From Amphiscolops sp. MND2022 (taxonomy: Eukaryota), in contig OZ076409.1 of assembly GCA_964187785.1 (NCBI GenBank), positions 74,836,001 to 74,900,000 on the forward strand: a DNA stretch of 64,000 nt, in the 5' to 3' direction. The notes beneath the pieces were generated by a model, which was not told the DNA's origin, did not search any database, and saw nothing but the letters and a program-made list of their open reading frames with translations. This document shows positions 1-33,358 of this stretch, one piece after another; positions within the stretch are counted from its first letter, which is position 1, and each line of letters begins with the position of its first letter. Made by a program: the position numbers and the translations under genes.

Positions 1-1023
1 GTATCTTTGTTCAACCGTACACGTCTAGGTGCCCGGATTTCTATTCATTAAAGTATGTTGCGCGTGTGGGTAGGGCCCCTGGCGCGCTCTTGTGTCCCTG
101 TTCTCATAACTGCAATTTCCGGCAGCATTCTGAGCGATTTTCTAAACTATCCATACGATTCGGCTGAAATTTGGCATGTGAGTTCCTATGACAGTTCTAA
201 GAAACATTTCCTACTGGCGTTTTGCCCGGAAAATTTTTTTTGTTGACTTATAACGGTTTTTTTGGCCAAAAAATGCGATTTTTTCAAAAAAAATTTTTTT
301 CGGAGCCCATATCTTTTTTCAGGGTGCCCGGAGCGGGACGCGTTAAACTGATTATAAACTCTACGGTTCATGGGCTTTACGGAGAACCTAGGCTCGTTTC
401 GATCGGACAAATAGTCTTGGAGATATAACGGCATTTTTTGAGAATTTTTTGGAAATTTTTCTAACGGTCCAGCTTATCTTTGCCATTTTTTCGAAAATGT
501 ACTCGCCTAAAGGCCTCCCCTGGCCGGTTTTAATCCCAGCAAAACCATTTGGCCCTAAATACGGAGTTTCAGCGTTCCAGCATTCCCGGGCGAAAAGTTG
601 TGGGACTTAGAAAAATTTCAAAATTTTTCAAAAATTTTTTTTCCGTTTTCCGCCCTCCCCCCCGAGGGGAAAAGACCCCCCAACCAGTAATTTGAGTGAA
701 TTCATGTGGAAAGGCCATGTTTAGAGAAGAAAAATGCCGTTTAGATCGTCTTTTTATTTTAACCTGTCGTTGACTTATGTTGTTTTGAAGGTGATGTTTG
801 GATGTGTGAAGCATGTGAAAAGGTAATTTATTGTGTCTTTAGCTCTTCTAAAAGTCATTGAGATACACGGTGTGTGACTCAGAAAGTGTTTAATTCTAAT
901 TTAGCAATGCATCAACACTTTTTTGTGTCTTTTGACTCTGTTTTAAAAAATTTTTCCGACTAAAATCAAAAATTATTTATAATTATTCACATTTTTTTTC
1001 TGATCTCATGACTCGAAACAGTT

Positions 1024-1067
1024 GAGTACATTCCATCTCCCTTCACGGGGGAGATGAGAATGTACTC
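1024..1067 (+). other. Long hairpin type H1 (GAGTACATTC CATCTCCC-loop-GGGAGATG A GAATGTACTC), example copy
   Basis: Inverted repeat with variable loop, about 260-280 nt before the end of the ~1.27-kb units (e.g. also 3589-3631); also present in the 2185-bp and 4763-bp units. Confidence 0.88.
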
Positions 1068-1257
1068 TTTAGAGACCAGGTACTACAGTACTTACCTTCC
1101 CCGAGCAACGCCCCATAAAAATTGCGTTTTGATCCAGATATTTTGACATAATTTTATCTTTGTAATTTGACTGGAAATGAAGAAAATGCCGCACGTGCTC
1201 TTTTATATCAAGTATCTTAACAACGCCATCTCTTTTACGTCAACGCCCCATAGTTCA

Positions 1258-1310
1258 CATCAACGCCCACCGTCCGTGGGCATGCCGAGGCATGCCCTTC
1301 GACGACGTAT
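1258..1310 (+). other. Conserved subterminal motif, first of 26 copies: CATCAACGCCCACCGTCYGTGGGCATGCCGAGGCATGCCCTTCGACGACGTAT (9-bp hairpin at 1278-1297)
   Basis: Found about 20-40 nt upstream of 26 of the 31 CTRR junctions and almost invariant across otherwise divergent units. Confidence 0.92.
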
Positions 1311-3892
1311 ACCAAGATATACTCCCGAGCGCGGTAGCCGCTAGGTGGTCGGTATTCTTTACTACCTCATGCTTTGAGGGCGGGGTAGGGCCCCCTGCCC
1401 GATCCTAATCCTTAGGATTTTAAACATAAGGCCAATAATACGGATTTTGGCGATTTCGAAAACTAACCTTACGATTTGGCTGAAATTTTGCATGCGGCTC
1501 CCTATGACAAATATAAGAACAAATCCCTAGTGGCATTTTGCTGGGAAAATTCAGTTTTTGGGTCAAAATCACTATTTTATGTCCAAAAAAAGGCGTTTTT
1601 TCGGAAAATTTTTTTTCAAGAGCCCATATCTCGCTCCCAGGTGCTCGGAGCGGGTCGCATGTGGACGTCGATATTGCTAGGCACTTCGTAAGGAGTCCGT
1701 AGACAAATTTTCGTACAGATCGGATGAAAATTGACTTAGTAATAAAAAACTTTGATTTGCATTTTTTCGAAAATTTATATAATCCCAGTGTATCTCTGCC
1801 GTTTTTTGCCCAGATTTTTTTCCAGGACCTCTCCTAAAGGCCTCCCCTGGCCGGTTTACCTCGCAGAAAAACCATTTGGCCCGTTTGCCGCAGTTTCAGC
1901 GTTCCAGGATTCCCCGGGTAAAAGTAAAATGACTTAGAATTTTTTCGAAAAATTTTCAAATTTTTTTTTTTCAACTTCAGACCTCCCAAAGTCAAGAAAC
2001 GTCCACACAACTAGTATTGCAAGTGAATGCATGTGGAAAGTGCTCGAATAGACGAGAAAAATGAGCTATTATAAACCTCTGTAGCTCAACCTGACGTTGA
2101 CTTATGACAATTTTAGTGTGAGCTTGCTATATGGTAAAAAAATTCAAAAATTGAAAATCGAAGCTAAGTCTCATCCAAAACTCATCGGAATACGTTCAAT
2201 CTATCCCAAAGTGGTTTATTTCCAGTTGTCTAGTGCAGCACCACCATTCAAAGCATTCAAAGTCCTTTTTGACTAATTTATATAAGTTTTGACATCGTCT
2301 TATCCATTCGAAAGTTGAAGCAGTTAAGTACATTCCATCTCCCCTCCGTGGGAGATGGTAATGTACGCGCAAAAAGCCAAGTACTATTGCCCTTTTTCTA
2401 CATGGAGTGGACCTAGAAATGCATTAGCGTGAGCTCCACGCTGCTTGCAGTAGCCCTTACAGGTGTTGTAACTTTGTTACAAAACTAACTATGTTACTAA
2501 TCATAAAAAAAATGTTACAATCGAAAAATTATTTTCATTAATTATATTTACACGTTTTGTTGTCAATCACAATAACTACAGCTACCGCCCTGGCCTGATT
2601 GTTCAACCGTGCACGTCTAGGTGCCGGTGTTTTCTTCACTTTTGAGGAAGTTGCGCGTGTGGGTAGGGCCCCTGGCGCGCTCCGTTGTCTCCCTGTTTAT
2701 ATCTTCGTAATTTTGAACAATTTTTTGGGATCTCGAAAACTGGCCACACGATTTGGCTGAAATTTTGCATGCGGCTTCCTATAACACTTCTAAGAACTAA
2801 TCCCTAGTGGCGTTTTGCTGGGAAAATTTTTTTTGTTGACTTATTCACATTTTTAGGGTCAAAAAAAGGCGTTTTTTTGAAAAAATTTTTTTCCAGAGAC
2901 AATTACTCAAAACTGGTGCACCCAGCGCAGTAACGCCTAGCTGATTTATTGTTGGGCATTTCATGAGGAGTCCGTATACAAATTTTTGTCCAAATCGGAT
3001 TAAAATTGATTGAGAAATAACTGAAAATTTGAGGAGTTTTTTTGGAAATTTTCGAAAACACAGTCTATCTCTGCCGTTTTTTGCCTAAAATTTTTTTGAG
3101 ACACTCTCCTAAAGACCTCCCCTGGCCGGTTTACCTCCCAGCAGAACCATTTGGCCCTAAATACGGAGTTTCAGCGTTCTAGCATTCCTGGGCGAAAAGT
3201 TGTGGGACTTAGAAAAATTTTTTGGAAACGCAAAATGTGTAAAGTCAACTTCAGGCCTCTCAAAGTCAAGGAACTTCCACACAACTAGTATTGCAAGTGA
3301 ATGCATGTGGAAAGTACTCGAATAGACGAGGAAAATGAGCTATAGAACGTCTCTGTATCTTAACTTGACGTTGACTTATGATAATTTTAGTGTGAGCTTG
3401 CTATGTGACAAAAAAATTCAAAATTGAAAATCGAAGCTAAGTCTCATCCAAAACTCATCGGAACACGTTCAGTCCGTCTCAGAGCGGTTCATTTCCATCT
3501 GTCTAGTACAGCAACACCATTCAAGGTCATTTGATTCATTTTTAAAGGATTTGAAATGGTCTTATTCATCCGAGAGCACAAAACAGTTGAGTACATTCCA
3601 TCTCCCTTTCTGGGGAGATGAGAATGTACTCGCTAAAGTCCAGATACCACAGCCCGATTTTGTTTCTCTGCGACGCAAATTTTTGATAGTGCACGTAACT
3701 ACTGGTCTTTTGACTGAATTTTGTATTTACATTGACGTGACATATGGTCCGTTTGGTCCTTACAACAACATACACATGACTAACGTCAACGCCACATACT
3801 GTTACCAACGCCCACCGTCCGTGGGCATGCCGAGGCATGCCCTTCGACGACGTATGCCAAATACCCCCTCCCGACGCGCACTCTTTCGCTAG

Positions 3893-6800
3893 GTGCGGGG
3901 GGGAAACCCCAACAAAATTTTTGGAGGATTCGGGTAGGGTCCTGAATCCGAGTTCAGTGCTGCCAGCTTTCGTTAAGAAAATTTGGATAGGATTCGGGAT
4001 CTCGTGATCTAACCATAGGATTTTAAAGTTGGAGCGGCCCCCACCAGATTTTCCGAAAATTAGCGCCCCCCACCGGGTTCCATACCCCGGAAAATTTTTT
4101 TCTGGCCACACGGGCGACCGTTAGGGGGTCATTTTAGGGGTAAAATTCATATTGGGCCACATAACTTTTTTTCTGTTGATTTAAAACTTTGGGACCCTGC
4201 TAAAAGTTTCTTGACCGTGTTGCAGGGGCCCCGGAGGTCCAAACCAAATTTTTCTATCTTGAAGCTATCTCCAAGTACCCCCCCGCCCAAAACGTTATTT
4301 TTCCGGAAACGCAGGTTTTTGACCCGGAAGGAGTCGTCGGAGCGCGGGGTCGTTAGGTGATGTATTGGGGACGGCCTTGAGACGAAGTGGGGGACATGTA
4401 GTTTGCCAACCCCAGTTTACCCCCCGGACGGGAAATGACCGTTATATGAGCGGGAAAATTGCCCCCCTCCACGTTTTACCGCTATTTCCGGTGTGAAGGA
4501 GTGGGAGTAGCGCGTCGGGTGCCATATATCAAAAGTAGGTTTAAACAAGGACCTATCGGAAACATGTGGTTTGGGACCCCCTGGACCAACCCGTTAGCGG
4601 GAAATGGGGCTTCCGGCTCCTTTTTTTACGGTTAAAAATGGAAAATGGGCATTGAGGGGTAAATATCTCGTGAACGCGTGGAGCTACGGTGTCCTTCACT
4701 ACTACAAGGTTTCATACCCATGATATGGTGCCTTCAGGGGGGCAAACAGATTTCCGCTATCTATCACCGTTACGGACTTGGCCCCCCAGGCTAACCGTTA
4801 AGTGACCGGAAATGTCATATTTTGAGCCCAAAGGGTCGGTCTCAGCCAGGGAACGTTAGGTAACTTATTGTAGTACTCATTGAGACGAGTTGGGGGACAT
4901 AGTTTCAGTCACCCCCCGTTACCCCTTAGGACCGGAAATGACCGTTATGTGAGTAAAATTGCCATTTTTGTCCTATTTGAAGGCCATTTAGATGCGGAAG
5001 GAGTGGTAATAGGTGCTTGGACACTATATGAAGTAAGGGAGGACGTGAGGCGAGCATTCGGACATAACCGTTATTTTGACCCTAAAGTCCCCCTGGTACC
5101 GTAAACGACCGGAAATGGTCAAATTTTGTATTTTTAGGGTACAAATGTTTGGTATTTTATGGAATAAAGTACATGGAAGGTGTTTCAAAGGCATCCAGAA
5201 ATGAACATAGTCATGAAACCTTGAGGGGGGTAACGGTATATAACACCGGAAGTCCAAGCCGTTGGACACAGTATAGGTTTTTGGGTTTTAAAATGCTTAT
5301 GAACGTACATTTGTGGGTTGAATTGTTCTAATATTGACTATTTTCGATATTTGTTGACATTAAAGGTTTTTCCAATAGTTTCAGGGACCTCCAAAGCTTC
5401 AATCAACATAACCTTTACATTATGATAGCCTTTCAAGTTGGCCTGGTGTCAACTTGGAAGGGCTATCCTTCACAAATCGTATATCAAGTGTGTTTTTGAG
5501 TAGGTTTTTATCACTTTAGTATCAATTAGAGCTTAATCATTAGTTTGCCAACGACAAAAACCATGTCGTGATGATTCCGTTAGTAGAAGAATAGTTAACA
5601 ACTTGTTGACAAAGTTGATTTTTTGCATTTAAAATGTTTCCTAAATGCCAGGAAAACGATTTACGTTATAAATGGTACTGATTGACCCAAATAACAGTTT
5701 AAAAAAGTTAAACATTATTTTTTCGTTTCATTATAGAAGCTGAAACCTCACGTTTTAACTTAATTAACGTCAACGCCACATACTTTACATCAACGCCCAC
5801 CGTCTGTGGGCATGCCGAGGCATGCCCTTCGACGACGTATACCAAAATCCAATATATCTACACCCAATTGCGGTAGCGGCTAGGTGCGGGGGGGTAACCC
5901 CAACAAAATTTTTGGAGGATTCGGGTAGGGTCCTGAATCCGAGTTCAGTGCTGCCAGCTTTCGTTAAGAAAATTTGGATAGGATTCGGGATCTCGTGATC
6001 TAACCATAGGATTTTAAAGTTGGAGCGGCCCCCACCAGATTTTCCGAAAATTAGCGCCCCCCACCGGGTTCCATACCCCGGAAAATTTTTTTCTGGCCAC
6101 ACGGGCGACCGTTAGGGGGTCATTTTAGGGGTAAAATTCATATTGGGCCACATAACTTTTTTTCTGTTGATTTAAAACTTTGGGACCCTGCTAAAAGTTT
6201 CTTGACCGTGTTGCAGGGGCCCCGGAGGTCCAAACCAAATTTTTCTATCTTGAAGCTATCTCCAAGTACCCCCCCGCCCAAAACGTTATTTTTCCGGAAA
6301 CGCAGGTTTTTGACCCGGAAGGAGTCGTCTGAGCGCGGGGTCGTTAGGTGATGTATTGGGGACGGCCTTGAGACGAAGCGGGGGACATGTTGTTTGCCGA
6401 CCCCAGTTTACCCCCCGGACGGGAAATGACCGTTATATGAGCGGGAAAATTGCCCCCCTCCACGTTTTACCGCTATTTCCGGTGTGAAGGAGTGGGAGTA
6501 GCGCGTCGGGTGCCATATATCAAAAGTAGGTTTAAACAAGGAACTATCGGAAACATGTGGTTTGGGACCCCCTGGACCAACCCGTTAGCGGGAAATGGGA
6601 CTTCCGCCTCCTTTTTTTACGGTTAAAAACGGAAAATGGGCATTGAGGGGTAAATATCTCGTGAACGCGTGGAGCTACGGTGTCCTTCACTACTACAAGG
6701 TTTCATACCCATGATATGGTGCCTTCAGGGGGGCAAACAGATTTCCGCTATCTATCACCGTTACGGACTTGGCCCCCCAGCCTAACCGTTAAGTGACCGG

Positions 6801-9800
6801 AAATGTCATATTTTGAACCCAAAGGCTCGATCCTAGCCGGGCAACGTTAGGTAACAAATTGTAGTACTCATTGAGACGAGTTGGGGGATCTAGTTTCAGT
6901 CACCCCCCGTTACCCCTTGAGACCGGAAATGACCGTTATGTGAGTAGAATTGCAATTTTTATACCTTTTGAAGGGCATTTAGGTGCGGAAGGAATGGTAA
7001 TAGGTGCTTGGACACTATATGAGGTAAGGGAGGACGTGAGGCGAGCATTCAGACATAACCGTTATGTTGACCCTAAAGTCCCCTTGGTACCGTAAACGAC
7101 CGGAAATGGTCAAATTTTGTGTCTATTGGGTACAAATGTTTGGTATTTTGTTAACGGTATATAGCACCGGAAGTCCAAACCGTTAGTTACAGAATAGGTT
7201 TTTTGGTTTCAAAATGTCTTTAGGCGTAGTTTTGTGGGTTGAATCGTCATAATATCAACTAATACGGACTTTTTTCGGAAATAAAATTTTTTCACATTAG
7301 TTTCAGGGACCTCCAATGTTTCAGTCAACATAACCGTTACATTTTGATAGCCTTTCAAGTTGGCCTGGTGTCAACTTGGAAGGGCTATCCTTCTAAAATC
7401 GTTAATCAAGAGTGTTTTTGGGTAGGTATATGTTGCATTAGTACCAATTAGAGCTTCATCAACAGTTTGCCAACGGCAAAAACGATGTCGTGATAATTCC
7501 GTTATAAGAATATTAATTAACAAATTGTTTCCAAAGTTGATTTTTTCCATTCGAAATGTGTCCCAATGCCACCAAATTGAATAAAATAATAAATGGTATT
7601 GACTAAAACTAAATAACATTGAAAAAGAAGCTCAACATTTTTAATAGGTCTCATTATGGAAGCTGAAACCTCACGTTTTAACTTAATTAACGTCAACGCC
7701 ACATACTTTACATCAACGCCCACCGTCTGTGGGCATGCCGAGGCATGCCCTTCGACGACGTATACCAATTACATATATATCTACACCCACCCGCGGTAGC
7801 AGCTAGGTGCGGGGGGGAAACCCCAACAAAATTTTTGGAGGATTCGGGTAGGGTCCTGAATCCGAGTTCAGTGCTGCCAGCTTTCGTTAAGAAAATTTGG
7901 ATAGGATTCGGGATCTCGTGATCTAACCATAGGCTTTTAAAGTTGGAGCGGCCCCCACCAGATTTTCCGAAAATTAGCGCCCCCCACCGGGTTCCATACC
8001 CCGGGAAATTTTTTTCTGGCCACACGGGCGACCGTTAGGGGGTCATTTTAGGGGTAAAATTCATATTGGGCCACATAACTTTTTTTCTGTTGATTTAAAA
8101 CTTTGGGACCCTGCTAAAAGTTTCTTGACCGTGTTGCAGGGGCCCCGGAGGTCCAAACAAAATTTTTCTATCTTGAAGCTATCTCCAAGTACCCCCCCGC
8201 CCAAAACGTTATTTTTCCGGAAACGCAGGTTTTTGACCCGGAAGGAGTCGTCGGAGCGCGGGGTCGTTAGGTGATGTATTGGGGACGGCCTTGAGACGAA
8301 GTGGGGGACATGCAGTTTGCCAACCCCAGTTTACCCCCCGGACGGGAAGTGACCGTTATATGAGCGGGAAAAATGCCCCCCTCCACGTTTTACCGCTATT
8401 TCCGGTGTGAAGGAGTGGGAGTAGCGCGTCGGGTGCCATATATCAAAAGTAGGTTTAGACAAGCATCTATCGGAAACATGTGGTTTGGGACCCCCTGGAC
8501 CAACCCGTTAGCGGGAAATGGGGCTTCCGCCTCCTCTTTTTACGGTTAAAAACGGAAAATGGGCATTGAGGGGTAAATATCTCGTGAACGCGTGGAGCTA
8601 CGGTGTCCTTCACTACTACAAGGTTTCATACCCATGATATGGTGCCTTCAGGGGGGCAAACAGATTTCCGCTATCTATCACCGTTACGGACTTGGCCCCC
8701 CAGCCTAACCGTTAAGTGACCGGAAATGTCATATTTTGAGCCCAAAGGGTCGGTCTCAGCCAGGGAACGTTAGGTAACTTATTGTAGTACTCATTGAGAC
8801 GAGTTGGGGGACATAGTTTCAGTCACCCCCCGTTACCCCTTAGGACCGGAAATGACCGTTATGTGAGTAAAATTGCCATTTTTGTCCTATTTGAAGGGCA
8901 TTCAGATGCGGAAGGAGTGGTAATAGGTGCTTGGACACTATATTAGGTAAGGGAGGACGTAAGGCAAGCATTCGCACATAACCGTTATGTTCACCCTAAA
9001 GTCCCCCTGGTACCGTAAACAACCGGAAATGGTCAAATTTTGTGTCTATTGGGTACAAATGTTTGGTATTTTGTAAATAAAAGTATCTATTAGGTGTTTC
9101 GACGGTCTGCAGTAGTGAACACAGTCATGAAACCTTGTGGGGGGGTAACGGTATATAGCACCGGAAATCCGAACAGTTGGAGACAGGATAGGTTTTTTGG
9201 TTTTAAAATGTCTTTCGGCGTACTTTTGTCGACTATTATGGACTATTTTTAAAAAATAAAGTTTTTCCATATAGTTTCAGAGACTCCGAAACCTCAACCA
9301 ACATAACCGTTACCTTATGATAGCCTTTCAAGTTGGCCTGGTGTCAACTTGGAAGGGCTATCCTTCAAAAATCGTTATTCAAGTGTGTTTTTGGGCATGT
9401 TTGTATCATTTTAGAATCAATTAGAGCTTCAAGAAAAGTTTGCCAACGACAAAAACTATGTCGTGATGATTCCGTTATTAAAATGATGGTTAACAAAATG
9501 TTGATAAAGTTGATTTTTTACATTTCAAATGTGTCCTAAAAGCCAGAAAACCTCTTTGCCAAAAAAATGGTATTGATTGATTTGTATATAACAGGTAATA
9601 AAAGTTCAAATTGATTATTACGTTTCATTATTCAAGCTAAAACTTCATAACATAGTTTAATTAACGTCAACGCCACATACTTTACATCAACGCCCACCGT
9701 CTGTGGGCATGCCGAGGCATGCCCTTCGACGACGTATACCAAATACATACCCAAACGACGCCCGTACATCCCGGGCTAGGTGCCGGGATTTCTATTCGTT

Positions 9801-12800
9801 CAGGGAAGATGCGCGCTGTTGGGGAGGGTCCCGGGCGCGCTCAGGTGTTTTGGGTCTTTCAACTTTCCAGAACGGGTCTGCTGGGAACGATCTCGAAAAC
9901 TATCCATACGATTTGACTGAAATTTTGCATGTGGCTCCCAATGGACATTGTAAGAACAAATCCCTACTGGCGTTTTGCTGGGAAAAATCGAAATGTTGGT
10001 CAAAAATGCAATTTTCCGACAAAATTTTTGACTTTTTTTTCTTTGACAGTCTATATCTCGCCACAGGGTTACGCTAGCTACCCTAAACCCTGCTAATTAT
10101 AATTTGCAAACTGTCTCAGGAATGCGGTGTGAAATTTTCAGGTCGATCGGACTAAAACTCAGCGACTTAGAGCGTTTTTTTAGGTGCATTTTTTGACATT
10201 TTTTGCGTTTGCTGATTTATCTCTGCCGTTTTTTGCCAAAATTTTTTCTGAGACACTCTCCTAAAGACCTCCCCTGGCCGGTTTACTTCCCAGCAAAACC
10301 ATTTGGCCCTAAATACGAAGTTTCAGCGTTCTAGCATTCCCGGGCGAAAAGTTGTGGGACTTAGAAAAATTTTTTGAAAACGCAAAATGTGTAAAGTCAG
10401 CTTCAGGCCTCCCAAAGTCAAGGAACTTCCACACAACTAGTATTGCAAGTGAATGCATGTGGAAAGTACTCGAATAGACGAGGAAAATGGGCTATAGAAC
10501 GTCTCTGTATCTTAACTTGACGTTGACTTATGGTGTTTTGAGTGTGAGCTTGCTATATGGTAAAAAATTCAAAAGATGAAAATCGAAGTTTGTCTCATCC
10601 AAAACTCATCGGAATACGTTCAATGCATCCCGAAGCGAATCAATTCCAGGTGTCTAGTGCAGCAACACCAATCAAGACCATTTGACCCATTTTTATAAGT
10701 TTTGACACCGTATTATTCATCCGAGAGCACGAAACAGTTGAGTACATTCCATCTCCCTCTCAGGGGAGATGAGAATGTACTCGCTAAAGTCCAGGTACTA
10801 CAACCCATATTTGTTTTTTGCGACGCTCTCATGCTAGTGCGCATACTTATTAATCTTTTAACTGATTTTTTTTTGTCGGCACTTTGACTTTGACCTGACA
10901 TATAGTGAATATTTTGTCCTTTTAATATACACATGACTAACATCAACGCCCCATCCTTGCATCAACGCCCCCCGTCCGTGGGCATGCCGAGGCATGCCCT
11001 TCGACGACGTATACCAAGATATACTCCCGAGCGCGTTAGCCTAGGTGCGGGGGGGTAACCCCAACAAATATATTGGAGGATTCGGGTAGGGTCCTGAATC
11101 CGATTTTAACTCTAATAGCTATCGATAGGAAATCTTGCAAAAATTTCGGGATCTCGTGATCTAACCATAGGATTTTAAAGTTGGAGCGGCCCCCACCAGA
11201 TTTTCCGAAAATTAGCGCCCCCCACCGGGTTCCATACCCCGGAAAATTTTTTTCTGGCCACACGGGCGACCGTTAGGGGGTCATTTTAGGGGTAAAATTC
11301 ATATTGGGCCACATAACTTTTTTTCTGTTGATTTAAAACTTTGGAACCCTGCTAAAAGTTTCTTGACCGTGTTGCAGAGGCCCCGAAGGTCCAAACCAAA
11401 TTTTTCTATCTTGAAGCTATCTCCAAGTACCCCCCCGCTCAAACCGTTATTTTTCCGGAAACGCAGGTTTTTGACCAGGAAGGAGTCGTCTGAGCGCGGG
11501 GTCGTTAGGTGATGTATTGGGGACGGCCTTGAGACGAAGTGGGGGACAAGTAGTTTGCCAACCTCAATTTACCCCCCGGACGGGAAATGACCGTTATATG
11601 AGCGGGAAAATTGCCCCCCTCCACGTTTTACCGCTATTTCCGGTGTGAAGGAGTGGGAGTAGCGCGTCGGGTGTTATATAACAAAAGTAGGTTTAGACAA
11701 GGACCTATCGGAAACATGTAGTTTGTGACCCCCTGGACCAACCCGTTAGCGGGAAATGGGGCTTCCGCCTCCTTTTTTTAGTGCTAAAACCGTAAAATGG
11801 GCATTGAGGGGTAAATATCTCGTGAACGCGTGGAGCAATCGTGTCCATCACTACTACAAGGTTTCATACCCATGATATGGTGCCTTCAGGGGGGCAAACA
11901 GATTTCCGCTATCTATCACCGTTACCGACTTGGCCCCCCAGCTTAACCGCTATGTGACCGGAAATGTCACTTTTTGAGCCCAAAGGGTCGGTCCCAGCCG
12001 GGGAACGTTAGGTAACTTATTGTAGTACTCAATGAGACGAGTTGGGGGATATAGTTTCAGTCACCCCCCGTTACCCCTTGGGACCGGAAATGACCGTTAT
12101 GTGGGTAAAATTGCAATTTTTATACTTTTTTAAGTGTATTTAGGTGCGGAAGGAGTGGTAATAGGTGCTTGGACACTATATGAGGTAAGGGAGGACGTGA
12201 GGCGAGCATTCGGAAGTAACCGTTATGTTGACCCTAAAGTCCCCCTGGTACCGTAAACGACCGGAAATGGTCAAATTTTGTGTCTATTGGGTACAAATGT
12301 TTTGTATTTTGTAGATAAAAGTATCTATTAGGTGTTTCGACGGTCTACAGTAGTGAACATAGTCATGAAACCTTGTGGGGGGTAACGGTATATAGCACCG
12401 GAAGTCAAACCGTTGGAGACAGGATAGGTTTTTTGGTTTTAAAATGTCTTTCGGCGTAATTTTTTCGACTCTTGTGGACTATTTTTAAAAATTAAAGTTT
12501 TTCCATATAGTTTCAGAGACTCCGAAACCTCAACCAACATAACCGTTACCTTATGATAGCCTTTCAAGTTGGCCTGGTGTCAACTTGGAAGCGCTATCCT
12601 TCTGAAATCGTTAATCAAGAGTGTTTTTGGGTAGGTATATATTGCATTAGTACCAATTAGAGCTTCATCAACAGTGTATCAACGACAAAAACTATGCCGT
12701 CATGATTCCGTTATTAGAATCATAGTGAGCAAATTGTTGAAAAAAATGGTTTTTTCCATACAAAATGTGTCCTAAATGCCAGGAAACCAATTTACCTAAC

Positions 12801-15800
12801 AAATGGTATTAATTGGAATGTTTGTAACAGATTTATAAAAGTTCAAATTGAATATTACATTTCATAATGGAAGCTGAAACGTCATATTTTAGTTTAATTA
12901 ACGTCAACGCCACACACTTTACATCAACGCACACCGTCTGTGGGCATGCCGAGGCATGCCCTTCGACGACGTATGACAAATCCTTATCAAACGACGCCCG
13001 TACATGCCGGGCTAGGTGCGGGGGGGAAACCCCATCCCTTATCTTGGAGGATTCGGGTAGGGTCCTGAATCCGAGTTCAGTGCCGCCAGCTCTCAGTAGA
13101 AATCTGGGCATTTTTTTGCGATCTCGTGATCTAACCATAGGATTTTAAAGTTGGAGCGGCCCCCACCAGATTTTCCAAAGTTATTCGCCCCCCACCGGGT
13201 TCCAGCGAGATTGAAATATTTTGACGGGGTACACGGGCGACCGTTAGGGGTCATTTTGGGGGTAAAATTTATATCCGGTCGCATAACTTTTTTCCTGTTG
13301 GTTTAAAACTTTGGGACCCTGCTAAAAGTTTCTTGACCGTGTTGCAGTGGCTCCGGAGGTCCAAACCAAATTTTTCTATCTTGAAGCTATCTCCAAGTAC
13401 CCCCCCGCCCAAACCGTTATTTTTCCGGAAACGCCGGTTTTTGACCCGGAAGGAGTTGTCTGAGCGCGGGGTCGTTAGGTGATGTATTGGGGACGGCCTC
13501 GAGACGAAGCGGGGGATATATAGTTTGCCGACCCCAGTTTACCCCCCGGACGGGAAATGACCGTTATTTGAGCGGGAAAAATGCCCCCCTCCACGTTTTA
13601 CCGCTATTTCCGGTGTGAAGGAGTGGGAGTAGCGCGTCGGGTGTTATATAACAAAAGTAGGTTTAGACAAGGACCTATCGGAAACATGTAGTTTGGGACC
13701 CCCTGGTCCAACCCGTTAGCGGGAAATGGGGCTTCCGCCTCCTTTTTTTACTGCTAAAACCGTAAAATGGGCATTGAGGGGTAAATATCTCGTGAACGCG
13801 TGGAGCAATCGTGTCCATCACTACTACAAGGTTTCATACCCATGATATGGTGCCTTCAGGGGGGCAAACAGATTTCCGCTATCTATCACCGTTACCGACT
13901 TGGCCCCCCAGCCTAACCGCTATGTGACCGGAAATGTCACTTTTTGAGCCCAAAGGGTCGGTCCCAGCCGGGGAACGTTAGGTAACTTATTGTAGTACTC
14001 AATGAGACGAGTTGGGGATATAGTTTCAGTCACCCCCCGTTACCCTTTGGGACCGGAAATGACCGTTATGTGGGTTAAATTGCAATTTTTATACTTTTTC
14101 AAGTGTATTTAGGTGCGGAAGGCGTGGTAATAGGTGCTTGGACACTATATGATGATAGGGAGGACGTGAGGCGAGCATTAAAAAATAACCGTTATGTTGA
14201 CCCCAAAGTCCCCCTGGTACCAGAAGTGACCCGTAACGGTCAAATTTTGTGTTTTTAGGGTACAAATGATTAGAATTTTATGGGAAAAAAGTACCTGGTC
14301 GGTGTTTCAACGGCTTGCCGTAGTGAACATAGTCCTGAAACCTTGTGGGGGGTAACGGTATATAGCACCGGAAGTCCAAACCGTTGGAGACAGGATAGGT
14401 ATTTTGGTTTTAAAATGCCTATAAGCGTACTTTTGTGGGTTGAATCGTTTCAATATCGACTAATTTGGATATTTTTTTGACATTGAAGGTTTTTTCAATA
14501 GTTTCAGGGACATCCAATGCTTCAATCAATATAACCGTTACCTTATGATAGCCTTTCAAGTTGGCCTGGTGTCAACTTGGAAGGGCTATCCTTCGAAAAT
14601 CGTAATTCAAGTGTGTTTTTGAGTACGTTTTTATTACTTTAATATCAATTAGAGCCTAATCATTAGTTTGCCAACGACAAAAACTATGACGTGATGATAC
14701 CGTTAGTAGAAGAATAGTTAACAATTTGTTGACAAAATTGATTTTTTGCATTTTAAATGTTTCCTAAATGCCAGGAAAACAATTTATCTAATGAATGGTA
14801 CTGATTGAACCCAAGTATCATTTGAAAAAAAGTAAAACATTGTCAAAACGCTGAAACCTCACGTTTTAGGTCACTTAACGTCAACGCCACATACTTTACA
14901 TCAACGCCCACCGTCTGTGGGCATGCCGAGGCATGCCTTTCGACGACGTATACCAATTACATATATATCTACACCCACCCGCGGTAGCAGCTAGGTGCGG
15001 GGGGGAAACCCCATCCCTTATCTTGGAGGATTCGGGTAGGGTCCTGAATCCGAGTTCAGTGCCGCCAGCTCTCAGTAGAAATCTGGGCATTTTTTTGCGA
15101 TCTCGTGATCTAACCATAGGATTTTAAAGTTGGAGCGGCCCCACCAGATTTTCCAAAGTTATTCGCCCCCCACCGGGTTCCAGCGAGATTGAAATATTTT
15201 GACGGGGTACACGGGCGACCGTTAGGGGTCATTTTGGGGGTAAAATTTATATCCGGTCGCATAACTTTTTTCCTGTTGGTTTAAAACTTTGGGACCCTGC
15301 TAAAAGTTTCTTGACCGTGTTGCAGTGGCTCCGGAGGTCCAAACCAAATTTTTCTATCTTGAAGCTATCTCCAAGTACCCCCCCGCCCAAACAGTTATTT
15401 TTCCGGAAACGCCGGTTTTTGACCCGGAAGGAGTTGTCTGAGCGCGGGGTCGTTAGGTGATGTATTGGGGACGGCCTCGAGACGAAGCGGGGGATATATA
15501 GTTTGCCGACCCCAGTTTACCCCCCGGACGGGAAATGACCGTTATTTGAGCGGGAAAAATGCCCCCCTCCACGTTTTACCGCTATTTCCGGTGTGAAGGA
15601 GTGGGAGTAGCGCGTCGGGTGTTATATAACAAAAGTAGGTTTAGACAAGGACCTATCGGAAACATGTAGTTTGGGACCCCCTGGTCCAACCCGTTAGCGG
15701 GAAATGGGGCTTCCGCCTCCTTTTTTTACTGCTAAAACCGTAAAATGGGCATTGAGGGGTAAATATCTCGTGAACGCGTGGAGCAATCGTGTCCATCACT

Positions 15801-18800
15801 ACTACAAGGTTTCATACCCATGATATGGTGCCTTCAGGGGGGCAAACAGATTTCCGCTATCTATCACCGTTACCGACTTGGCCCCCCAGCCTAACCGCTA
15901 TGTGACCGGAAATGTCACTTTTTGAGCCCAAAGGGTCGGTCCCAGCCGGGGAACGTTAGGTAACTTATTGTAGTACTCAATGAGACGAGTTGGGGATATA
16001 GTTTCAGTCACCCCCCGTTACCCTTTGGGACCGGAAATGACCGTTATGTGGGTTAAATTGCAATTTTTATACTTTTTCAAGTGTATTTAGGTGCGGAAGG
16101 CGTGGTAATAGGTGCTTGGACACTATATGATGATAGGGAGGACGTGAGGCGAGCATTAAAAAATAACCGTTATGTTGACCCCAAAGTCCCCCTGGTACCA
16201 GAAGTGACCCGTAACGGTCAAATTTTGTGTTTTTAGGGTACAAATGATTAGAATTTTATGGGAAAAAAGTACCTGGTCGGTGTTTCAACGGCTTGCCGTA
16301 GTGAACATAGTCCTGAAACCTTGTGGGGGGTAACGGTATATAGCACCGGAAGTCCAAACCGTTGGAGACAGGATAGGTATTTTGGTTTTAAAATGCCTAT
16401 AAGCGTACTTTTGTGGGTTGAATCGTTTCAATATCGACTAATTTGGATATTTTTTTGACATTGAAGGTTTTTTCAATAGTTTCAGGGACCTCCAATGCTT
16501 CAATCAATATAACCGTTACCTTATGATAGCCTTTCAAGTTGGCCTGGTGTCAACTTGGAAGGGCTATCCTTCGAAAATCGTAATTCAAGTGTGTTTTTGA
16601 GTACGTTTTTATTACTTTAATATCAATTAGAGCCTAATCATTAGTTTGCCAACGACAAAAACTATGACGTGATGATACCGTTAGTAGAAGAATAGTTAAC
16701 AATTTGTTGACAAAATTGATTTTTTGCATTTTAAATGTTTCCTAAATGCCAGGAAAACAATTTATCTAATGAATGGTACTGATTGAACCCAAGTATCATT
16801 TGAAAAAAAGTAAAACATTGTCAAAACGCTGAAACCTCACGTTTTAGGTCACTTAACGTCAACGCCACATACTTTACATCAACGCCCACCGTCTGTGGGC
16901 ATGCCGAGGCATGTCTTTCGACGACGTATACCAATTACATATATATCTACACCCACCCGCGGTAGCAGCTAGGTGCGGGGGGGTAACCCCAACAAATATA
17001 TTGGAGGATTCGGGTAGGGTCCTGAATCCGATTTTAACTCTAATAGCTATCGATAGGAAATCTTGCAAAAATTTCGGGATCTCGTGATCTAACCATAGGA
17101 TTTTAAAGTTGGAGCGGCCCCCACCAGATTTTCCGAAAATTAGCGCCCCCCACCGGGTTCCAGCGTGATTGAAATATTTTGACGGGGTACACGGGCGACC
17201 GTTAGGGGTCATTTTGGGGGTAAAATTTATATCCGGTCGCATAACTTTTTTTCTGTTGATTTAAAACTTTGGAACCCTGCTAAAAGTTTCTTGACCGTGT
17301 TGCAGGGGCCCCGAAGGTCCAAACCAAATTTTTCTATCTTGAAGCTATCTCCAAGTACCCCCCCGCTCAAACCGTTATTTTTCCGGAAACGCAGGTTTTT
17401 GACCCGGAAGGAGTCGTCTGAGCGCGGGGTCGTTAGGTGATGTATTGGGGACGGCCTTGAGACGAAGTGGGGGACAAGTAGTTTGCCAAACTCAATTTAC
17501 CCCCCGGACGGGAAATGACCGTTATATGAGCGTGTAAAATGCCCCCCCTCCACGTTTTACCGCTATTTCCGGTGTGAAGGAGTGGGAGTAGCGCGTCGGG
17601 TGTTATATAACAAAAGTAGGTTTAGACAAGGACCTATCGGAAACATGTAGTTTGGGACCCCCTGGACCAACCCGTTAGCGGGAAATGGGGCTTCCGCCTC
17701 CTTTTTTTAGTGCTAAAACCGTAAAATGGGCATTGAGGGGTAAATATCTCGTGAACGCGTGGAGCAATCGTGTCCATCACTACTACAAGGTTTCATACCC
17801 ATGATATGGTGCCTTCAGGGGGGCAAACAGATTTCCGCTATCTATCACCGTTACCGACTTGGCCCCCCAGCCTAACCGCTATGTGACCGGAAATGTCACT
17901 TTTTGAGCCCAAAGGGTCGGTCCCAGCCGGGGAACGTCAGGTAACTTATTGTAGTACTCAATGAGACGAGTTGGGGGATATAGTTTCAGTCACCCCCCGT
18001 TACCCCTTGGGACCGGAAATGACCGTTATGTGGGTAAAATTGCAATTTTTATACTTTTTCAAGTGTATTTAGGTGCGGAAGGAGTGGTAATAGGTGCTTG
18101 GACACTATATGAGGTAAGGGAGGACGTGAGGCGAGCATTCAGAAATAACCGTTATGTTGACCCTAAAGTCCCCCTGGTACCGTAAACGACCGGAAATGGT
18201 CAAATTTTGTGTCTATTGGGTACAAATGTTTTGTATTTTGTAGATAAAAGTATCTATTAGGTGTTTCGACGGTCTACAGTAGTGAACATAGTCATGAAAC
18301 CTTGTGGGGGGTAACGGTATATAGCACCGGAAGTCAAACCGTTGGAGACAGCTTAGGTTTTTTGGTTTTAAAATGTCTTTCGGCGTAATTTTTTTGACTC
18401 TTGTGGACTATTTTTAAAAATTAAAGTTTTTCCATATAGTTTCAGAGACTCCGAAACCTCAACCAACATAACCGTTACCTTATGATAGCCTTTCAAGTTG
18501 GCCTGGTGTCAACTTGGAAGCGCTATCCTTCTGAAATCGTTAATCAAGAGTGTTTTTGGGTAGGTATATATTGCATTAGTACCAATTAGAGCTTCATCAA
18601 CAGTGTATCAACGACAAAAACTATGCCGTCATGATTCCGTTATTAGAATCATAGTGAGCAAATTGTTGAAAAAATGGTTTTTTCCATACAAAATGTGTCC
18701 TAAATGCCAGGAAACCTATTTACCTAACAAATGGTATTAATTGGAATGTTTGTAACAGATTTATAAAAGTTCAAATTGAATATTACATTTCATTATGGAA

Positions 18801-21800
18801 GCTGAAACGTCATATTTTAGTTTAATTAACGTCAACGCCACACACTTTACATCAACGCACACCGTCTGTGGGCATGCCGAGGCATGCCCTTCGACGACGT
18901 ATACCAAATACAAACCCAAACGACGCCCGTACATCCCGGGCTAGGTGCGGGGGGGTAACCCCAACAAATATATTGGAGGATTCGGGTAGGGTCCTGAATC
19001 CGATTTTAACTCTAATAGCTATCGATAGGAAATCTTGCAAAAATTTCGGGATCTCGTGATCTAACCATAGGATTTTAAAGTTGGAGCGGCCCCCACCAGA
19101 TTTTCCGAAAATTAGCGCCCCCCACCGGGTTCCATACCCCGGAAAATTTTTTTCTGGCCACACGGGCGACCGTTAGGGGGTCATTTTAGGGGTAAAATTC
19201 ATATTGGGCCACATAACTTTTTTTCTGTTGATTTAAAACTTTGGAACCCTGCTAAAAGTTTCTTGACCGTGTTGCAGGGGCCCCGAAGGTCCAAACCAAA
19301 TTTTTCTATCTTGAAGCTATCTCCAAGTACCCCCCCGCTCAAACCGTTATTTTTCCGGAAACGCAGGTTTTTGACCCGGAAGGAGTCGTCTGAGCGCGGG
19401 GTCGTTAGGTGATGTATTGGGGACGGCCTTGAGACGAAGTGGGGGACAAGTAGTTTGCCAACCTCAATTTACCCCCCGGACGGGAAATGACCGTTATATG
19501 AGCGTGAAAAATGCCCCCCTCCACGTTTTACCGCTATTTCCGGTGTGAAGGAGTGGGAGTAGCGCGTCGGGTGTTATATAACAAAAGTAGGTTTAGACAA
19601 GGACCTATCGGAAACATGTAGTTTGGGACCCCCTGGACCAACCCGTTAGCGGGAAATGGGGCTTCCGCCTCCTTTTTTTAGTGCTAAAACCGTAAAATGG
19701 GCATTGAGGGGTAAATATCTCGTGAACGCGTGGAGCAATCGTGTCCATCACTACTACAAGGTTTCATACCCATGATATGGTGCCTTCAGGGGGGCAAACA
19801 GATTTCCGCTATCTATCACCGTTACCGACTTGGCCCCCCAGCCTAACCGCTATGTGACCGGAAATGTCACTTTTTGAGCCCAAAGGGTCGGTCCCAGCCG
19901 GGGAACGTTAGGTAACTTATTGTAGTACTCAATGAGACGAGTTGGGGGATATAGTTTCAGTCACCCCCCGTTACCCCTTGGGACCGGAAATGACCGTTAT
20001 GTGGGTAAAATTGCAATTTTTATACTTTTTCAAGTGTATTTAGGTGCGGAAGGAGTGGTAATAGGTGCTTGGACACTATATGAGGCAAGGGAGGACTTGA
20101 GGCGAGCATTCGGAAATAACCGTTATGTTGACCCTAAAGTCCCCCTGGTACCGTAAACGACCGGAAATGGTCAAATTTTGTGTCTATTGGGTACAAATGT
20201 TTTGTATTTTGTAGATAAAAGTATCTATTAGATGTTTCGACGGTCTACAGTAGTGAACATAGTCATGAAACCTTGTGGGGGGTAACGGTATATAGCACCG
20301 GAAGTCAAACCGTTGGAGACAGGATAGGTTTTTTGGTTTTAAAATGTCTTTCGGCGTAATTTTTTCGACTCTTGTGGACTATTTTTAAAAATTAAAGTTT
20401 TTCCATATAGTTTCAGAGACTCCGAAACCTCAACCAACATAACCGTTACCTTATGATAGCCTTTCAAGTTGGCCTGGTGTCAACTTGGAAGCGCTATCCT
20501 TCTGAAATCGTTAATCAAGAGTGTTTTTGGGTAGGTATATATTGCATTAGTACCAATTAGAGCTTCATCAACAGTGTATCAACGACAAAAACTATGCCGT
20601 CATGATTCCGTTATTAGAATCATAGTGAGCAAATTGTTGAAAAAAATGGTTTTTACCATACAAAATGTGTCCTAAATGCCAGGAAACCTATTTACCTAAC
20701 AAATGGTATTAATTGGAATGTATGTAACAGATTTATAAAAGTTCAAATTGAATATTACATTTCATTATGGAAGCTGAAACGTCATATTTTAGTTTAATTA
20801 ACGTCAACGCCACACACTTTACATCAACGCACACCGTCTGTGGGCATGCCGAGGCATGCCCTTCGACGACGTATGACAAATCCTTATCAAACGACGCCCG
20901 TACATCCCGGGCTAGGTGCGGGGGGGAAACCCCATCCCTTATCTTGGAGGATTCGGGTAGGGTCCTGAATCCGAGTTCAGTGCCGCCAGCTCTCAGTAGA
21001 AATCTGGGAAATTTTTTGCGATCTCGTGATCTAACCATAGGATTTTAAAGTTGGAGCGGCCCCCACCAGATTTTCCAAAGTTATTCGCCCCCCACCGGGT
21101 TCCAGCGTGATTGAAATATTTTGTCGGGGTACACGGGCGACAGTTAGGGGTCATTTTGGGGGTAAAATTTATATCCGGTCGCATAACTTTTTTCCTGTTG
21201 GTTTAAAACTTTGGGACCCTGCTAAAAGTTTCTTGACCGTGTTGCGGGGGCTCCGGAGGTCCAAACCAAATTTTTCTATCTTGAAGCTATCTCCAAGTAC
21301 CCCCCCGCCCAAACCGTTATTTTTCCGGAAACGCAGGTTTTTGACCCGGAAGGAGTCGTCTGAGCGCGGGGTCGTTAGGTGATGTATTGGGGACGGCCTT
21401 GAGACGAAGCGGGGGATATATAGTTTGCCGACCCCAGTTTACCCCCCGGACGGGAAATGACCGTTATATGAGCGGGAAAAATGCCCCCCTCCACGTTTTA
21501 CCGCTATTTCCGGTGTGAAGGAGTGGGAGTAGCGCGTCGGGTGTTATATATCAAAAGTAGGTTTAGACAAGGACCTATCGGAAACATGTGGTTTGGGACC
21601 CCCTGGACCAACCCGTTAGCGGGAAATGGCGTTTCCGCTTCCTTTTTTTACTGCTAAAACCGTAAAATGGGCATTGAGGGGTAAATATCTCGTGAACGCG
21701 TGGAGCAATCGTGTCCATCACTACTACAAAGTTTCATACCCATGATATGGTACCTTCAGGGGGGCAAACAGATTTCCGCTATCTATCACCGTTACGGACT

Positions 21801-22096
21801 TGGCCCCCCACCCTAACCGCTATATGACCGGAAATGTCACTTTTTGAGCCCAAAGGGTCGGTCCCAGCCGGGGAACGTTAGGTAACTTATTGTAGTACTC
21901 AATGAGACGAGTTGGGGGACATAGTTTCAGTCACCCCAGTTACCCCTTGGGACCGGAAATGACCGTTATATGTGTAAATTTGCAATTTTTATACTTTTTG
22001 AAGTGCATTTAGGTGCGGAAGGAGTGGTAATAGGTGCTTGGACACTATATGATGATGGGGAGGACGTGAGGCGAGCATTCGAAAATAACCGTTATG
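3893..22096 (+). repeat. ~1.97-kb unit family, 8 full and 1 partial near-identical copies, interrupted by one 1265-bp unit (9780-11044)
   Basis: Long blocks recur nearly verbatim, e.g. GGAGTGGGAGTAGCGCGTCGGGTG and GATAGCCTTTCAAGTTGGCCTGGTGTCAACTTGGAAG. Units 13016-14994 and 14995-16972 are virtually identical. Confidence 0.93.
5424..5467 (+). other. Long hairpin type H2 (GATAGCCTTTCAAGTTGGC-loop-GTCAACTTGGAAGGGCTATC), example copy
   Basis: ~19-bp stem with G-T pairs, present in the full-length ~1.97-kb units and in the ~1.39-kb units (43347-43389, 48601-48643, ~49970-50012). Confidence 0.88.
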
Positions 22097-22296
22097 NNNN
22101 NNNNNNNNNNNNNNNNNNNNNNNNNNNNNNNNNNNNNNNNNNNNNNNNNNNNNNNNNNNNNNNNNNNNNNNNNNNNNNNNNNNNNNNNNNNNNNNNNNNN
22201 NNNNNNNNNNNNNNNNNNNNNNNNNNNNNNNNNNNNNNNNNNNNNNNNNNNNNNNNNNNNNNNNNNNNNNNNNNNNNNNNNNNNNNNNNNNNNNNN
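22097..22296. other. Assembly gap (200 N)
   Basis: Run of exactly 200 N; the true length is unknown. Confidence 0.99.
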
Positions 22297-28620: not shown

Positions 28621-28820
28621 ACATCGTAAAAGCTAAAAAGTAGGGGAAGCACATAGTTCTACTCTGATAGTGAACGTGTGTTGTTCTCCACATTAGGTTT
28701 TAAAACAACATGTAATTTTGTGTAAAAATGTAAAAGTAGGCACTGTAGGATATCGCACAAAGTTCTACTACACAGGATGGACACCGTGCGATACTCTGTT
28801 TGTTCACTGTAGGTTAGTTT

Positions 28821-28951
28821 GCTGGAATCGACGGAGAGCGTGGTTCCAGGTAGGTTTATATTAGGTTACTTAGCTGGAATCGACGATGAGCGTGGTTCCA
28901 GGTAGGTTTAAATTAGGTTGGTTTGCTGGAATCGACGATGAGCGTGGTTCC
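28821..28951 (+). repeat. 52-bp tandem repeat, ~2.5 copies (core GCTGGAATCGACGATGAGCGTGGTTCC)
   Basis: Core starts at 28821, 28873 and 28925; a further isolated copy lies at 33510-33535. Confidence 0.9.
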
Positions 28952-30120: not shown

Positions 30121-30311
30121 AAGAAGACGGTCCAGAACACGGAAAGAAGATTTGGGAAAAGATTATAATAACTCTGACATGTTTTTGTACTTCACTTTTT
30201 TGAAAGGTTGTAGGTTCAGAATAGGCTGTAGTGATTAGGTTGTATAAATTTCATTGTTCGGCATGATATGCAAATCACTGGGAGCCCTAACCGATAGTCC
30301 TCGTTTTGTAG

Positions 30312-33129: not shown

Positions 33130-33358
33130 TCGCCTGGATACACTACAATACTTTAGCGCTGTTGCGGTTGAGTGGCTTGTCGCCCTTTTGAGCCGTCAGT
33201 CACTCTCCGCAATTGAACTTAAAAATTTGATTTTGTTTATGGTAAAATAATTACCATTTTGTTTGAAATAAAAGCAAAGAAGTAAGCCTTTTTTGGGAAC
33301 AACTAAAACTAATTGATTGTTTTAATCCCACAGGTTTTTTTCACTCAATTGTCTTCAG

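What the first reader, a model, noticed from the sequence alone, without database searches (positions are those of the whole stretch)
1221..1344. Origin-like terminus: phased CAACGCC repeats, invariant hairpin with compensatory changes, then CTAG
Seen: CAACGCC occurs at 1221, 1241 and 1261 (20-nt period; usually two copies ~20-22 nt apart in other units), directly before GGGCATGCC-GA-GGCATGCCC. In three units (~56254, ~57526, ~60600) both outer bases change together to AGGCATGCC-GA-GGCATGCCT. The stem can extend through CGTC/GACG, and GCCCAC-CGTCY-GTGGGC offers an overlapping alternative hairpin. The hairpin lies ~35-55 nt from CTAG, farther than the ~10-15 nt typical of Helitrons. Established: iterons plus a stem-loop define HUH-Rep rolling-circle origins. 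Inference: Rep binding and termination signal.
Basis: partly seen in the sequence, partly recalled or inferred. Interest (0 to 1): 0.7.

Follow-up and report, generated by a model that had tools for sequence, protein, structure and literature searches.

The report
Self-stacking Helitron-like transposon end
This is the tail end of a small rolling-circle jumping element, one of about thirty from several families stacked head-to-tail, and they belong to a deeply separate Helitron-like lineage that seems to insert exactly at its own end-to-end junctions.

Summary
The motifs are real. They lie in a 47-bp block (97% identical) at 26 of the 31 unit ends of a head-to-tail array filling 98% of the window. 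Units of at least six length classes join precisely at CTRG|GT, all on one strand, in 30 different end/start combinations. The block is a right (3') end, not an origin.

The case for the hairpin is modest: one two-sided change in terminal copies (49/500 shuffles), a second in a decayed internal copy (11/500). The CAACGCC period is 18-20 nt, with three exact copies in only 1 of 26 ends. Five ends, including that of the only RepHel-coding element, lack the block. The 20-mer also matches a p53-family site at 19/20.

The strongly covarying signal lies across the junction: a hairpin 37-47 nt inside each start (0/500), whose apex recurs in relatives of 25-33% protein identity. The transposase (HUH Rep, PIF1, C-terminal SLX1-like GIY-YIG) heads a large clade outside HLE1 and HLE2 in my trees. 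Best reading: a divergent Helitron-like lineage that inserts at its own junctions. I found no description of it; its relation to the Paramecium clade is untested.

The parts
29..1344 (+). Non-autonomous unit (1316 bp, ~1.27-kb family) whose 3' end is the finding
   Evidence: junction-to-junction interval
1221..1267 (+). Three CAACGCC copies at 20-nt period (1221, 1241, 1261); three exact copies only in this unit, and only the proximal copy is conserved across units
1261..1307 (+). 47-bp subterminal block, 97% identical in 26 unit ends of unrelated bodies
1278..1297 (+). 8-bp stem, 4-nt loop hairpin; also two tandem decamers matching the p53 consensus at 19/20
1341..1346 (+). Junction CTAG|GT: 3' end of one unit and start of the next; CTRGGT invariant in 31 of 31 junctions; exact nick position within it unresolved
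1375..1404 (+). 5' hairpin of the next unit with conserved apex (1383-1394) and covarying arms; apex present in 29 of 31 unit starts
1024..1067 (+). Long internal hairpin conserved at 16 places in the window (1.27-kb family and one composite unit); role unknown
22297..28620 (+). RepHel transposase ORF (5' part hidden by a 200-N gap at 22097-22296): HUH motif 24841-24879, two tyrosines 25384-25398, Walker A 26833-26856, GIY-YIG 28267-28482
30312..30971 (+). SGNH/GDSL-hydrolase-like ORF inside the RepHel element (lead only)
   Evidence: no Pfam hit
31996..33129 (+). Accessory Cys-motif ORF shared with distant relatives; OB-fold/ssDNA-binding-like by a weak Atlas lead, fold not confirmed
33723..33728 (+). 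3' end of the RepHel element, CTAG|GT, without the 47-bp block
54770..54816 (+). Decayed internal copy of the block (33/47), no CTAG after it, about 200 bp upstream of an intact terminal copy
62566..62612 (+). Decayed internal copy (30/47); stem still pairs through a two-sided C-G to T-A change while the p53 core is lost
29..62852 (+). Whole head-to-tail array: 31 junctions, 30 intervals (one spans the gap); it continues past both window edges

Best explanation
The finding is one family-group version of the right (3') end of non-autonomous rolling-circle elements moved by a divergent Helitron-like transposase.

SHOWN: units start with GT and a hairpin with a conserved apex, end in CTRG, and abut with no host DNA, no target duplication and no terminal inverted repeats. 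A Rep-PIF1-GIY-YIG element sits in the array and ends in the same junction.

INFERRED from the Helraiser mechanism: Rep nicks the + strand at a junction marked by the downstream 5' hairpin. The helicase peels the strand to the next CTRG, where the 47-bp block and hairpin favour termination in most families. The unit circularises, remaking a CTRG|GT junction.

INFERRED, new: integration attacks the same junction sequence in the chromosome, so elements of any family stack in one orientation in mixed arrays. The SLX1-like nuclease may open or resolve the target; that step is speculative.
For: - 31 of 31 junctions share CTRGGT and diverge on both sides.
- 22 end types and 22 start types give 30 distinct combinations. 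Every repeated end type and every repeated start type meets more than one partner.
- Neighbours are often unrelated: global identity 0.41-0.72 for 16 of 23 adjacent pairs under 2.3 kb.
- No junction with apex on the minus strand.
- The 5' hairpin covaries: 7 of 10 pairs change on both sides, 0/500 shuffles. Own arms pair better than permuted arms, 0/20000.
- The apex lies upstream of the RepHel ORF in L002, L005, L014, L020 and, with one mismatch, L012. L005 also has CTGG|GTG 28 nt before it.
- The block decays when not terminal, and all 72 stem cells still pair (11/500).
- Helraiser cleaves its plus-strand end-to-end junction precisely, and its 3' hairpin is a dispensable terminator (PMC5876387, passages).
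Against: - Only one window and no genome were available, so solitary copies elsewhere cannot be excluded and no empty site was seen.
- Some neighbours are near-identical (0.998 and 0.98), which tandem duplication explains.
- The RepHel element and four other ends lack the block.
- None of 40 related loci carries the block.
- The gap at 22097-22296 hides the autonomous element's start, so array continuity across it is not shown.
- Only 1 of 33 RepHel-bearing loci shows junction plus apex. L023 and L029 have about 800 and 700 nt upstream of the ORF without an apex match.
- L011 appears to run from the element into a host-like gene, so insertion is not always inside arrays.
- No biochemical data.
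Confidence: 0.62

Rival explanations
1. The array is built without target preference: by rolling-circle multimers, terminator read-through, and recombination or gene conversion between conserved end blocks, which shuffles units afterwards.
For: Near-identical neighbours exist and the 1.97-kb family is clustered. Tails are swapped between bodies: 16 pairs with body identity >=0.9 have tail identity <0.7. Internal end remnants suggest read-through. Head-to-tail Helitron arrays are reported in plants and bats (PMC5876387, passage).
Against: Multimers give identical neighbours, whereas 30 of 31 end/start combinations differ and switch exactly at a 6-bp core, too short for homologous recombination. 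No host DNA or inverted unit lies between any two units.
Confidence: 0.17
2. The 20-mer is kept mainly as a double-stranded site for a host p53/p63/p73-family factor (for example to drive or time activity of the downstream element), and the hairpin is a by-product of palindromic half-sites.
For: All 26 terminal copies match RRRCWWGYYY x2 at 19/20, and every terminal variant stays within the consensus. The consensus and a p53-site-bearing non-autonomous DNA transposon are in PMC3485254 (passages). Terminal covariation is not significant.
Against: The flanks are as conserved as the 20-mer. The block is intact only at 35-53 nt from CTRG. An internal copy keeps the stem by a two-sided change while losing the core C. 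The host is not known to have p53-family genes. No RNA data (one search listed none).
Confidence: 0.13
3. The block has no special function and is uniform only because one end type spread recently between families by end-swapping; CTRG alone ends transposition.
For: Five ends, including the autonomous one, do without it. The tail is only weakly tied to the body (r 0.45). The 7 distinct stem changes would all keep pairing about 9% of the time under a transitions-only null.
Against: The sequence on both sides of the block (upstream and the 35-53 nt tail) is highly diverged, yet the block is 97% identical with sharp edges. Non-terminal copies decay.
Confidence: 0.08

Closest known systems
HLE1 / canonical Helitron (Helraiser)
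   Same: HUH-Y2 Rep plus PIF1 helicase; CTRR 3' end; subterminal 3' hairpin; no terminal inverted repeats; head-to-tail junctions are natural substrates (PMC11417382, PMC5876387, passages).
   Different: Units start with GT, not TC. The hairpin is 35-53 nt from the end rather than about 11, and absent in some families. There is a conserved 5' hairpin and a C-terminal GIY-YIG. The transposase is a separate clade; Helraiser matches only in the helicase (E 4e-11).
HLE2 / Helentron, proto-Helentron, FoHeli3-5
   Same: A 5' hairpin (FoHeli, proto-Helentron), a CTAG end (proto-Helentron), some families without a 3' hairpin, an added nuclease after the helicase, OTU in some relatives.
   Different: No subterminal inverted repeats (0 of 29 units reach 11/12). 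No DUF6570 (0 of 11). The nuclease is GIY-YIG, not AP endonuclease. No T-T insertion. Separate clade.
HLE Paramecium (BMC Biol 2026, PMC13085455; bioRxiv 2025.11.06.686955)
   Same: A third clade outside HLE1/HLE2, very long ORF, strict orientation, proposed target-specific insertion, several alternative right ends, many non-autonomous copies (sections 14, 15 and first part of 18 read).
   Different: It ends in CCAA and sits in telomere repeats. 'GIY' occurs 0 times in the main text and the 7 readable supplements. By eye the Hel01 ORF stops about 80 codons after helicase motif VI, against about 185 here. Phylogenetic relation not tested.
HelenSM92 (Sphagnum) and HELIANO's unclassified HLEs
   Same: A GIY-YIG domain in one HLE family; unclassified HLEs in 19 genomes.
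   Different: HelenSM92 is HLE2 with terminal inverted repeats and TT sites, and its GIY-YIG is described as a single capture; here it is a clade-wide feature. The unclassified group is not described, so overlap cannot be excluded.

Membership tests
Helitron-like elements (superfamily) | HUH Rep with two tyrosines fused to a PIF1-like helicase | tested here: met
   Pfam Helitron_like_N 38.6 bits and PIF1 43.6 bits, both above cut-off; two His and two Tyr invariant in 15 aligned proteins
Helitron-like elements (superfamily) | Rolling-circle transposition through a circular intermediate | not testable with these tools
   no reads were listed; inferred from Helraiser
HLE1 | 3' CTRR end | tested here: met
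   CTAG in 29 and CTGG in 2 of 31 junctions
HLE1 | 5' TC start | tested here: not met
   GT follows CTRG in 31 of 31; if the nick lies one base later the start is TG or TA, still not TC
HLE1 | 16-20 nt palindrome about 11 nt from the 3' end | tested here: not met
   20-nt hairpin at 35-53 nt in 26 of 31 ends, none in 5; small stems next to CTAG only in some
HLE1 | Insertion between A and T | tested here: inconclusive
   only element-element junctions are visible; no empty site
HLE1 | Transposase within the HLE1 clade | tested here: not met
   Rep tree with 4 HLE1-like references: separate splits 0.995 and 0.996; reference sampling is thin
HLE2 / Helentron | Short (sub)terminal inverted repeats | tested here: not met
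   0 of 29 units; own ends match no better than foreign ends, 8.1 vs 8.3 of 12
HLE2 / Helentron | DUF6570 marker and HLE2 clade | tested here: not met
   DUF6570 in 0 of 11 clade proteins; separate from 20 HLE2 references in Rep and helicase trees
HLE Paramecium | Transposase in the Paramecium clade | not tested
   the sequences are in a paper supplement and were not entered into any tree
HLE Paramecium | CCAA end and flanking telomere repeats | tested here: not met
   ends are CTRG; no such short telomere-repeat array among the 14 tandem-repeat rows
   the junction lies 35-53 nt beyond the hairpin; only one repeat copy is invariant
p53-family response element | Two RRRCWWGYYY decamers, spacer 0-13 | tested here: met
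   19/20 in 26 of 26 terminal copies
p53-family response element | Binding and transcriptional effect | not testable with these tools
   host unknown, no binding or RNA data

The most novel reading that the evidence does not exclude
A widespread, undescribed deep lineage of eukaryotic rolling-circle transposons, marked by a C-terminal SLX1-like nuclease and a 5' hairpin apex conserved across 25-33% protein identity. It integrates site-specifically into its own end-to-end junction, building cassette-like mixed arrays that spare host genes. In this host the commonest right end may double as a p53-family site that links mobilisation to a host stress or germline factor (this last clause alone about 0.1).
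Probability: 0.4. Interest if true: 0.8.

Novelty: new variant of a known kind. Interest (0 to 1): 0.62.

Why it matters
The published classification I read has two Helitron groups plus a Paramecium clade, and the common detection tools look for TC...CTRR ends or terminal inverted repeats, so elements with these ends would be missed. At least 333 protein clusters (50% identity) match at E<=1e-30, many on 7-36 kb contigs.

If self-targeting is right, it gives a direct route from transposons to large heterogeneous repeat blocks. It also makes testable how an HUH transposase chooses its target, since donor and target would be one defined short junction. A sequence- or structure-specific, scarless, replicative integrase for multi-kilobase cargo would be of practical interest.

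The motif in the finding is by itself a fairly ordinary Helitron-type right end; the interest lies in the junction, the 5' hairpin and the lineage.

Tried and rejected
- Own genome: none is held, so no genome-wide copy survey.
- Sequencing runs: none was listed; no read evidence either way.
- Rfam: 0 matches in the window at gathering score; an RNA-gene array was dropped.
- Viral or prokaryotic origin: no relative among 47 candidate stretches in viral contigs; one helicase-only hit among 113 in prokaryote genomes. An HLE2 query of viral contigs for tree references gave none.
- Junction-plus-apex pattern in viral contigs: 12 hits, none with a RepHel match by tblastn, treated as chance. The hairpin motif gave 0 hits there.
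- L007 has CTGG|GTG after its ORF but no apex, so it is not counted as support. L012 has CTAG|TT 54 nt before its apex; single case, weak.
- Terminal inverted repeats and the idea that CAACGCCCAC pairs with the unit start: rejected.
- Alternative hairpin: rejected.
- The ATG at 21970 is not a true start; it lies in a 1.97-kb-family unit before the gap.
- Fold of the accessory ORF: pLDDT 31.8, unusable, no fold search run.
- IQ-TREE failed on an option clash; the rows labelled 'iq' are FastTree.
- Earlier scan findings: nothing in three look-ups.
- Literature: searches found no description of this lineage or of mixed self-targeted arrays (one search was swamped by unrelated words). Subscription journals and Repbase Reports are outside the library. 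Two Paramecium supplements were too large to read and HELIANO's supplements were not opened; either could bear on novelty.

Full report
OBSERVATION. The coordinates are right: CAACGCC at 1221, 1241 and 1261, the inverted repeat at 1278-1297 and CTAG at 1341-1344. The 18-nt core has 27 matches in the window against 0.01 expected; 26 are terminal and one (54788) is internal. The conserved thing is a 47-bp block, 97% identical over 26 copies, with sharp edges. The repeats are spaced 18-20 nt; three exact copies occur in 1 of 26 ends, two in 11 and one in 14. The hairpin ends 35-53 nt before CTRG. The overlapping alternative hairpin is broken in 9 of 26.

HOW GOOD IS THE HAIRPIN. On the 26 terminal copies (11 distinct rows) 1 of 13 pairs changes on both sides, and 49 of 500 shuffles do as well. 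The three A-T units are neighbours and may share one event. The 2185-bp family carries a second, internal copy about 200 bp upstream with no CTAG after it, decayed to 33/47 and 30/47. I aligned 9 rows: 7 terminal variants chosen by hand and these 2. All 72 stem cells pair, two pairs change on both sides, and 11 of 500 shuffles match this. A transitions-only null gives 0.089 for seven changes all keeping pairs. So the structure is supported modestly, and conservation depends on being terminal. The 20-mer is also two tandem decamers matching the p53 consensus at 19/20 in all 26 terminal copies (consensus first recalled, then read in passages of PMC3485254). The internal copies lose the core C while keeping the stem.

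CONTEXT. The window is one array. It has 31 junctions with invariant CTRGGT, spanning 98% of the window, with none on the minus strand. Units fall into classes of about 1.27, 1.39, 1.97, 2.19, 3.07 and 4.76 kb with largely unrelated bodies, plus one coding element. Clustering ends and starts at 90% gives 22 and 22 types and 30 distinct combinations among 31 junctions. Of 23 adjacent pairs under 2.3 kb, 16 are 0.41-0.72 identical, five are 0.85-0.89 and two are 0.98 or more. Five ends lack the block (28, 2620, 33726, 35003, 51592), among them the coding element's. No unit has terminal inverted repeats (0 of 29). A 200-N gap at 22097-22296 hides the start of the coding element.

At 37-47 nt inside 29 of 31 unit starts lies a hairpin with a conserved G-rich apex (85% identity) and unrelated arms (36%). 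Own arms pair better than permuted arms in 19 distinct arm pairs, 0 of 20000 permutations. On 18 chosen rows 7 of 10 pairs change on both sides, 0 of 500 shuffles, above all slid controls (bulges lower the paired share to 73%). Among 33 RepHel-bearing metagenome loci (40 returned) the apex occurs upstream of the ORF in L002, L005, L014 and L020 and with one mismatch in L012. Their proteins are 25-33% identical to the query. L005 has CTGG|GTG 28 nt before the apex, and the first 226 nt of L002 match the unit starts by BLASTN (E 2e-14). Many other loci begin inside or just before the ORF, but L023 and L029 have about 800 and 700 nt upstream with no match. None of the 40 loci has the 47-bp block, so the finding's end type is local.

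THE TRANSPOSASE. The ORF has Helitron_like_N, PIF1 and GIY-YIG above Pfam cut-offs. The HUH histidines and two tyrosines are invariant in 15 aligned proteins, and the C-terminal domain hits an SLX1 homolog (E 2e-4). Fifteen further 90% clusters at 54-100% identity, mostly on long assembly contigs, suggest many subfamilies; canonical Helitrons appear only at E about 1e-4. An unfiltered search found 333 representatives at E<=1e-30. GIY-YIG passes Pfam's cut-off in 9 of 11 clade proteins and DUF6570 in none. A profile built from clade members hits 58 of 61 clade proteins long enough to hold it (of 174) and 0 of 124 canonical ones (the seeds are among those tested).

TREES. In FastTree trees the clade is split from HLE2 and HLE1-like references. 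Rep: 34 + 20 + 4 rows, supports 0.995, 0.99 and 0.996, three rows dropped for lack of a motif match. Helicase: 36 + 20 + 1 + 4 Pif1-only rows, clade 0.998, HLE1+HLE2 0.90, four rows dropped. Branches are long and references few; the HLE2 label rests on DUF6570 (19 of 20) and the HLE1 label is my inference. A second ORF (31996-33129) shares five invariant Gly/Cys positions of a Cys motif with ORFs in six related loci. An ssDNA-binding OB fold is only a weak lead and folding failed.

MECHANISM. From passages of PMC5876387: Helraiser needs the left end, uses the right-end hairpin as a dispensable terminator, and cleaves the plus-strand end-to-end junction precisely. Applied here by inference, the 5' hairpin marks initiation, CTRG marks the second nick, and the 47-bp block is the commonest of several right-end signals. 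If the chromosomal junction is also the preferred target, every new copy lands between two old ones in the same orientation, which is the pattern seen (0.62). Multimer formation with later shuffling explains the few identical neighbours and swapped tails but not family switches at a 6-bp core (0.17). The p53-site reading (0.13) and no function for the block (0.08) remain. L011 runs from element ORFs through CTGG|GTG at 11705 into a cysteine-synthase-like gene: perhaps an array edge or a solitary insertion, unproven.

COMPARISON. It works like a Helitron and meets the superfamily's protein definition. It fails the HLE1 start and hairpin position and the HLE2 inverted repeats and marker (definitions from passages of PMC11417382, PMC4067079 and PMC5148889). 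The nearest precedent is the Paramecium third clade (abstract, sections 14, 15 and first part of 18, and passages): target-specific and strictly oriented, but ending in CCAA within telomere repeats, with no GIY-YIG mentioned. Whether the two clades are kin was not tested. HELIANO reports one HLE2 family with a captured GIY-YIG and unclassified elements in 19 genomes. Xenopus Helitron arrays were defined as repeats of one monomer (PMC12001565, passages). Passages of PMC13565253, PMC12730594 and PMC6431247 added nothing on this lineage. Eight searches found no description, within a library that lacks subscription journals and Repbase Reports.

VERDICT. Observation partly confirmed; interpretation partly supported. 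A real right-end module of a divergent, probably self-targeting Helitron-like lineage. New variant of a known kind, interest 0.62. The host is inferred to be a eukaryote and was not identified.

Noticed in passing
window 1024-1067 and 15 other places (e.g. 2328, 34699, 38801, 63828): A long, strongly conserved internal hairpin about 970-1000 nt into every 1.27-kb-family unit, with a variable loop; role unknown.
   Followed up: partly
window, 1.27-kb family: Unit length is held at 1265-1316 bp although bodies diverge to about 60-70% and end types differ, as if length or spacing were constrained.
   Followed up: no
window 52870 and 60668: The two 2185-bp units lack the G-rich apex and have a different hairpin at the same place; they look like mosaics of the 1.39-kb and 1.27-kb families.
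   Followed up: partly
window 30312-30971: SGNH/GDSL-hydrolase-like ORF in the RepHel element; a similar reading frame seems to lie near the end of L004 by eye.
   Followed up: partly
window 28810-28951, 29639-30119, 33359-33469, 37233-38584: Minisatellites of 52, 76, 57 and 336 bp inside the RepHel element and the 4.76-kb unit.
   Followed up: no
L028 13305-15674 (-); L020 11484-12776: Relatives carry extra genes: a Ulp1-protease plus SET-domain ORF in L028 and an ORF without Pfam hit in L020 that looks like a 2OG-Fe oxygenase by eye.
   Followed up: partly
L002, L014, L020 contig starts: Three contigs begin 19-34 nt before the apex, and many clade proteins lie on 7-36 kb contigs, as expected if assemblies break at junctions with variable neighbours.
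   Followed up: no
L012 57-63 and window junctions: CTAG is followed by TT in L012 and by GT in the window; both fit a nick one base later, before a T. Single case.
   Followed up: partly
L011 11705-15215: Possible element end followed by a host-like PLP-enzyme/glutaredoxin gene; a candidate array edge for fixing the boundary.
   Followed up: partly
window 21970-28620 vs P0002: P0002 is almost identical over most of the ORF but clearly differs in one stretch of about 130 residues in the N-terminal half, suggesting recombination between subfamilies (by eye).
   Followed up: no
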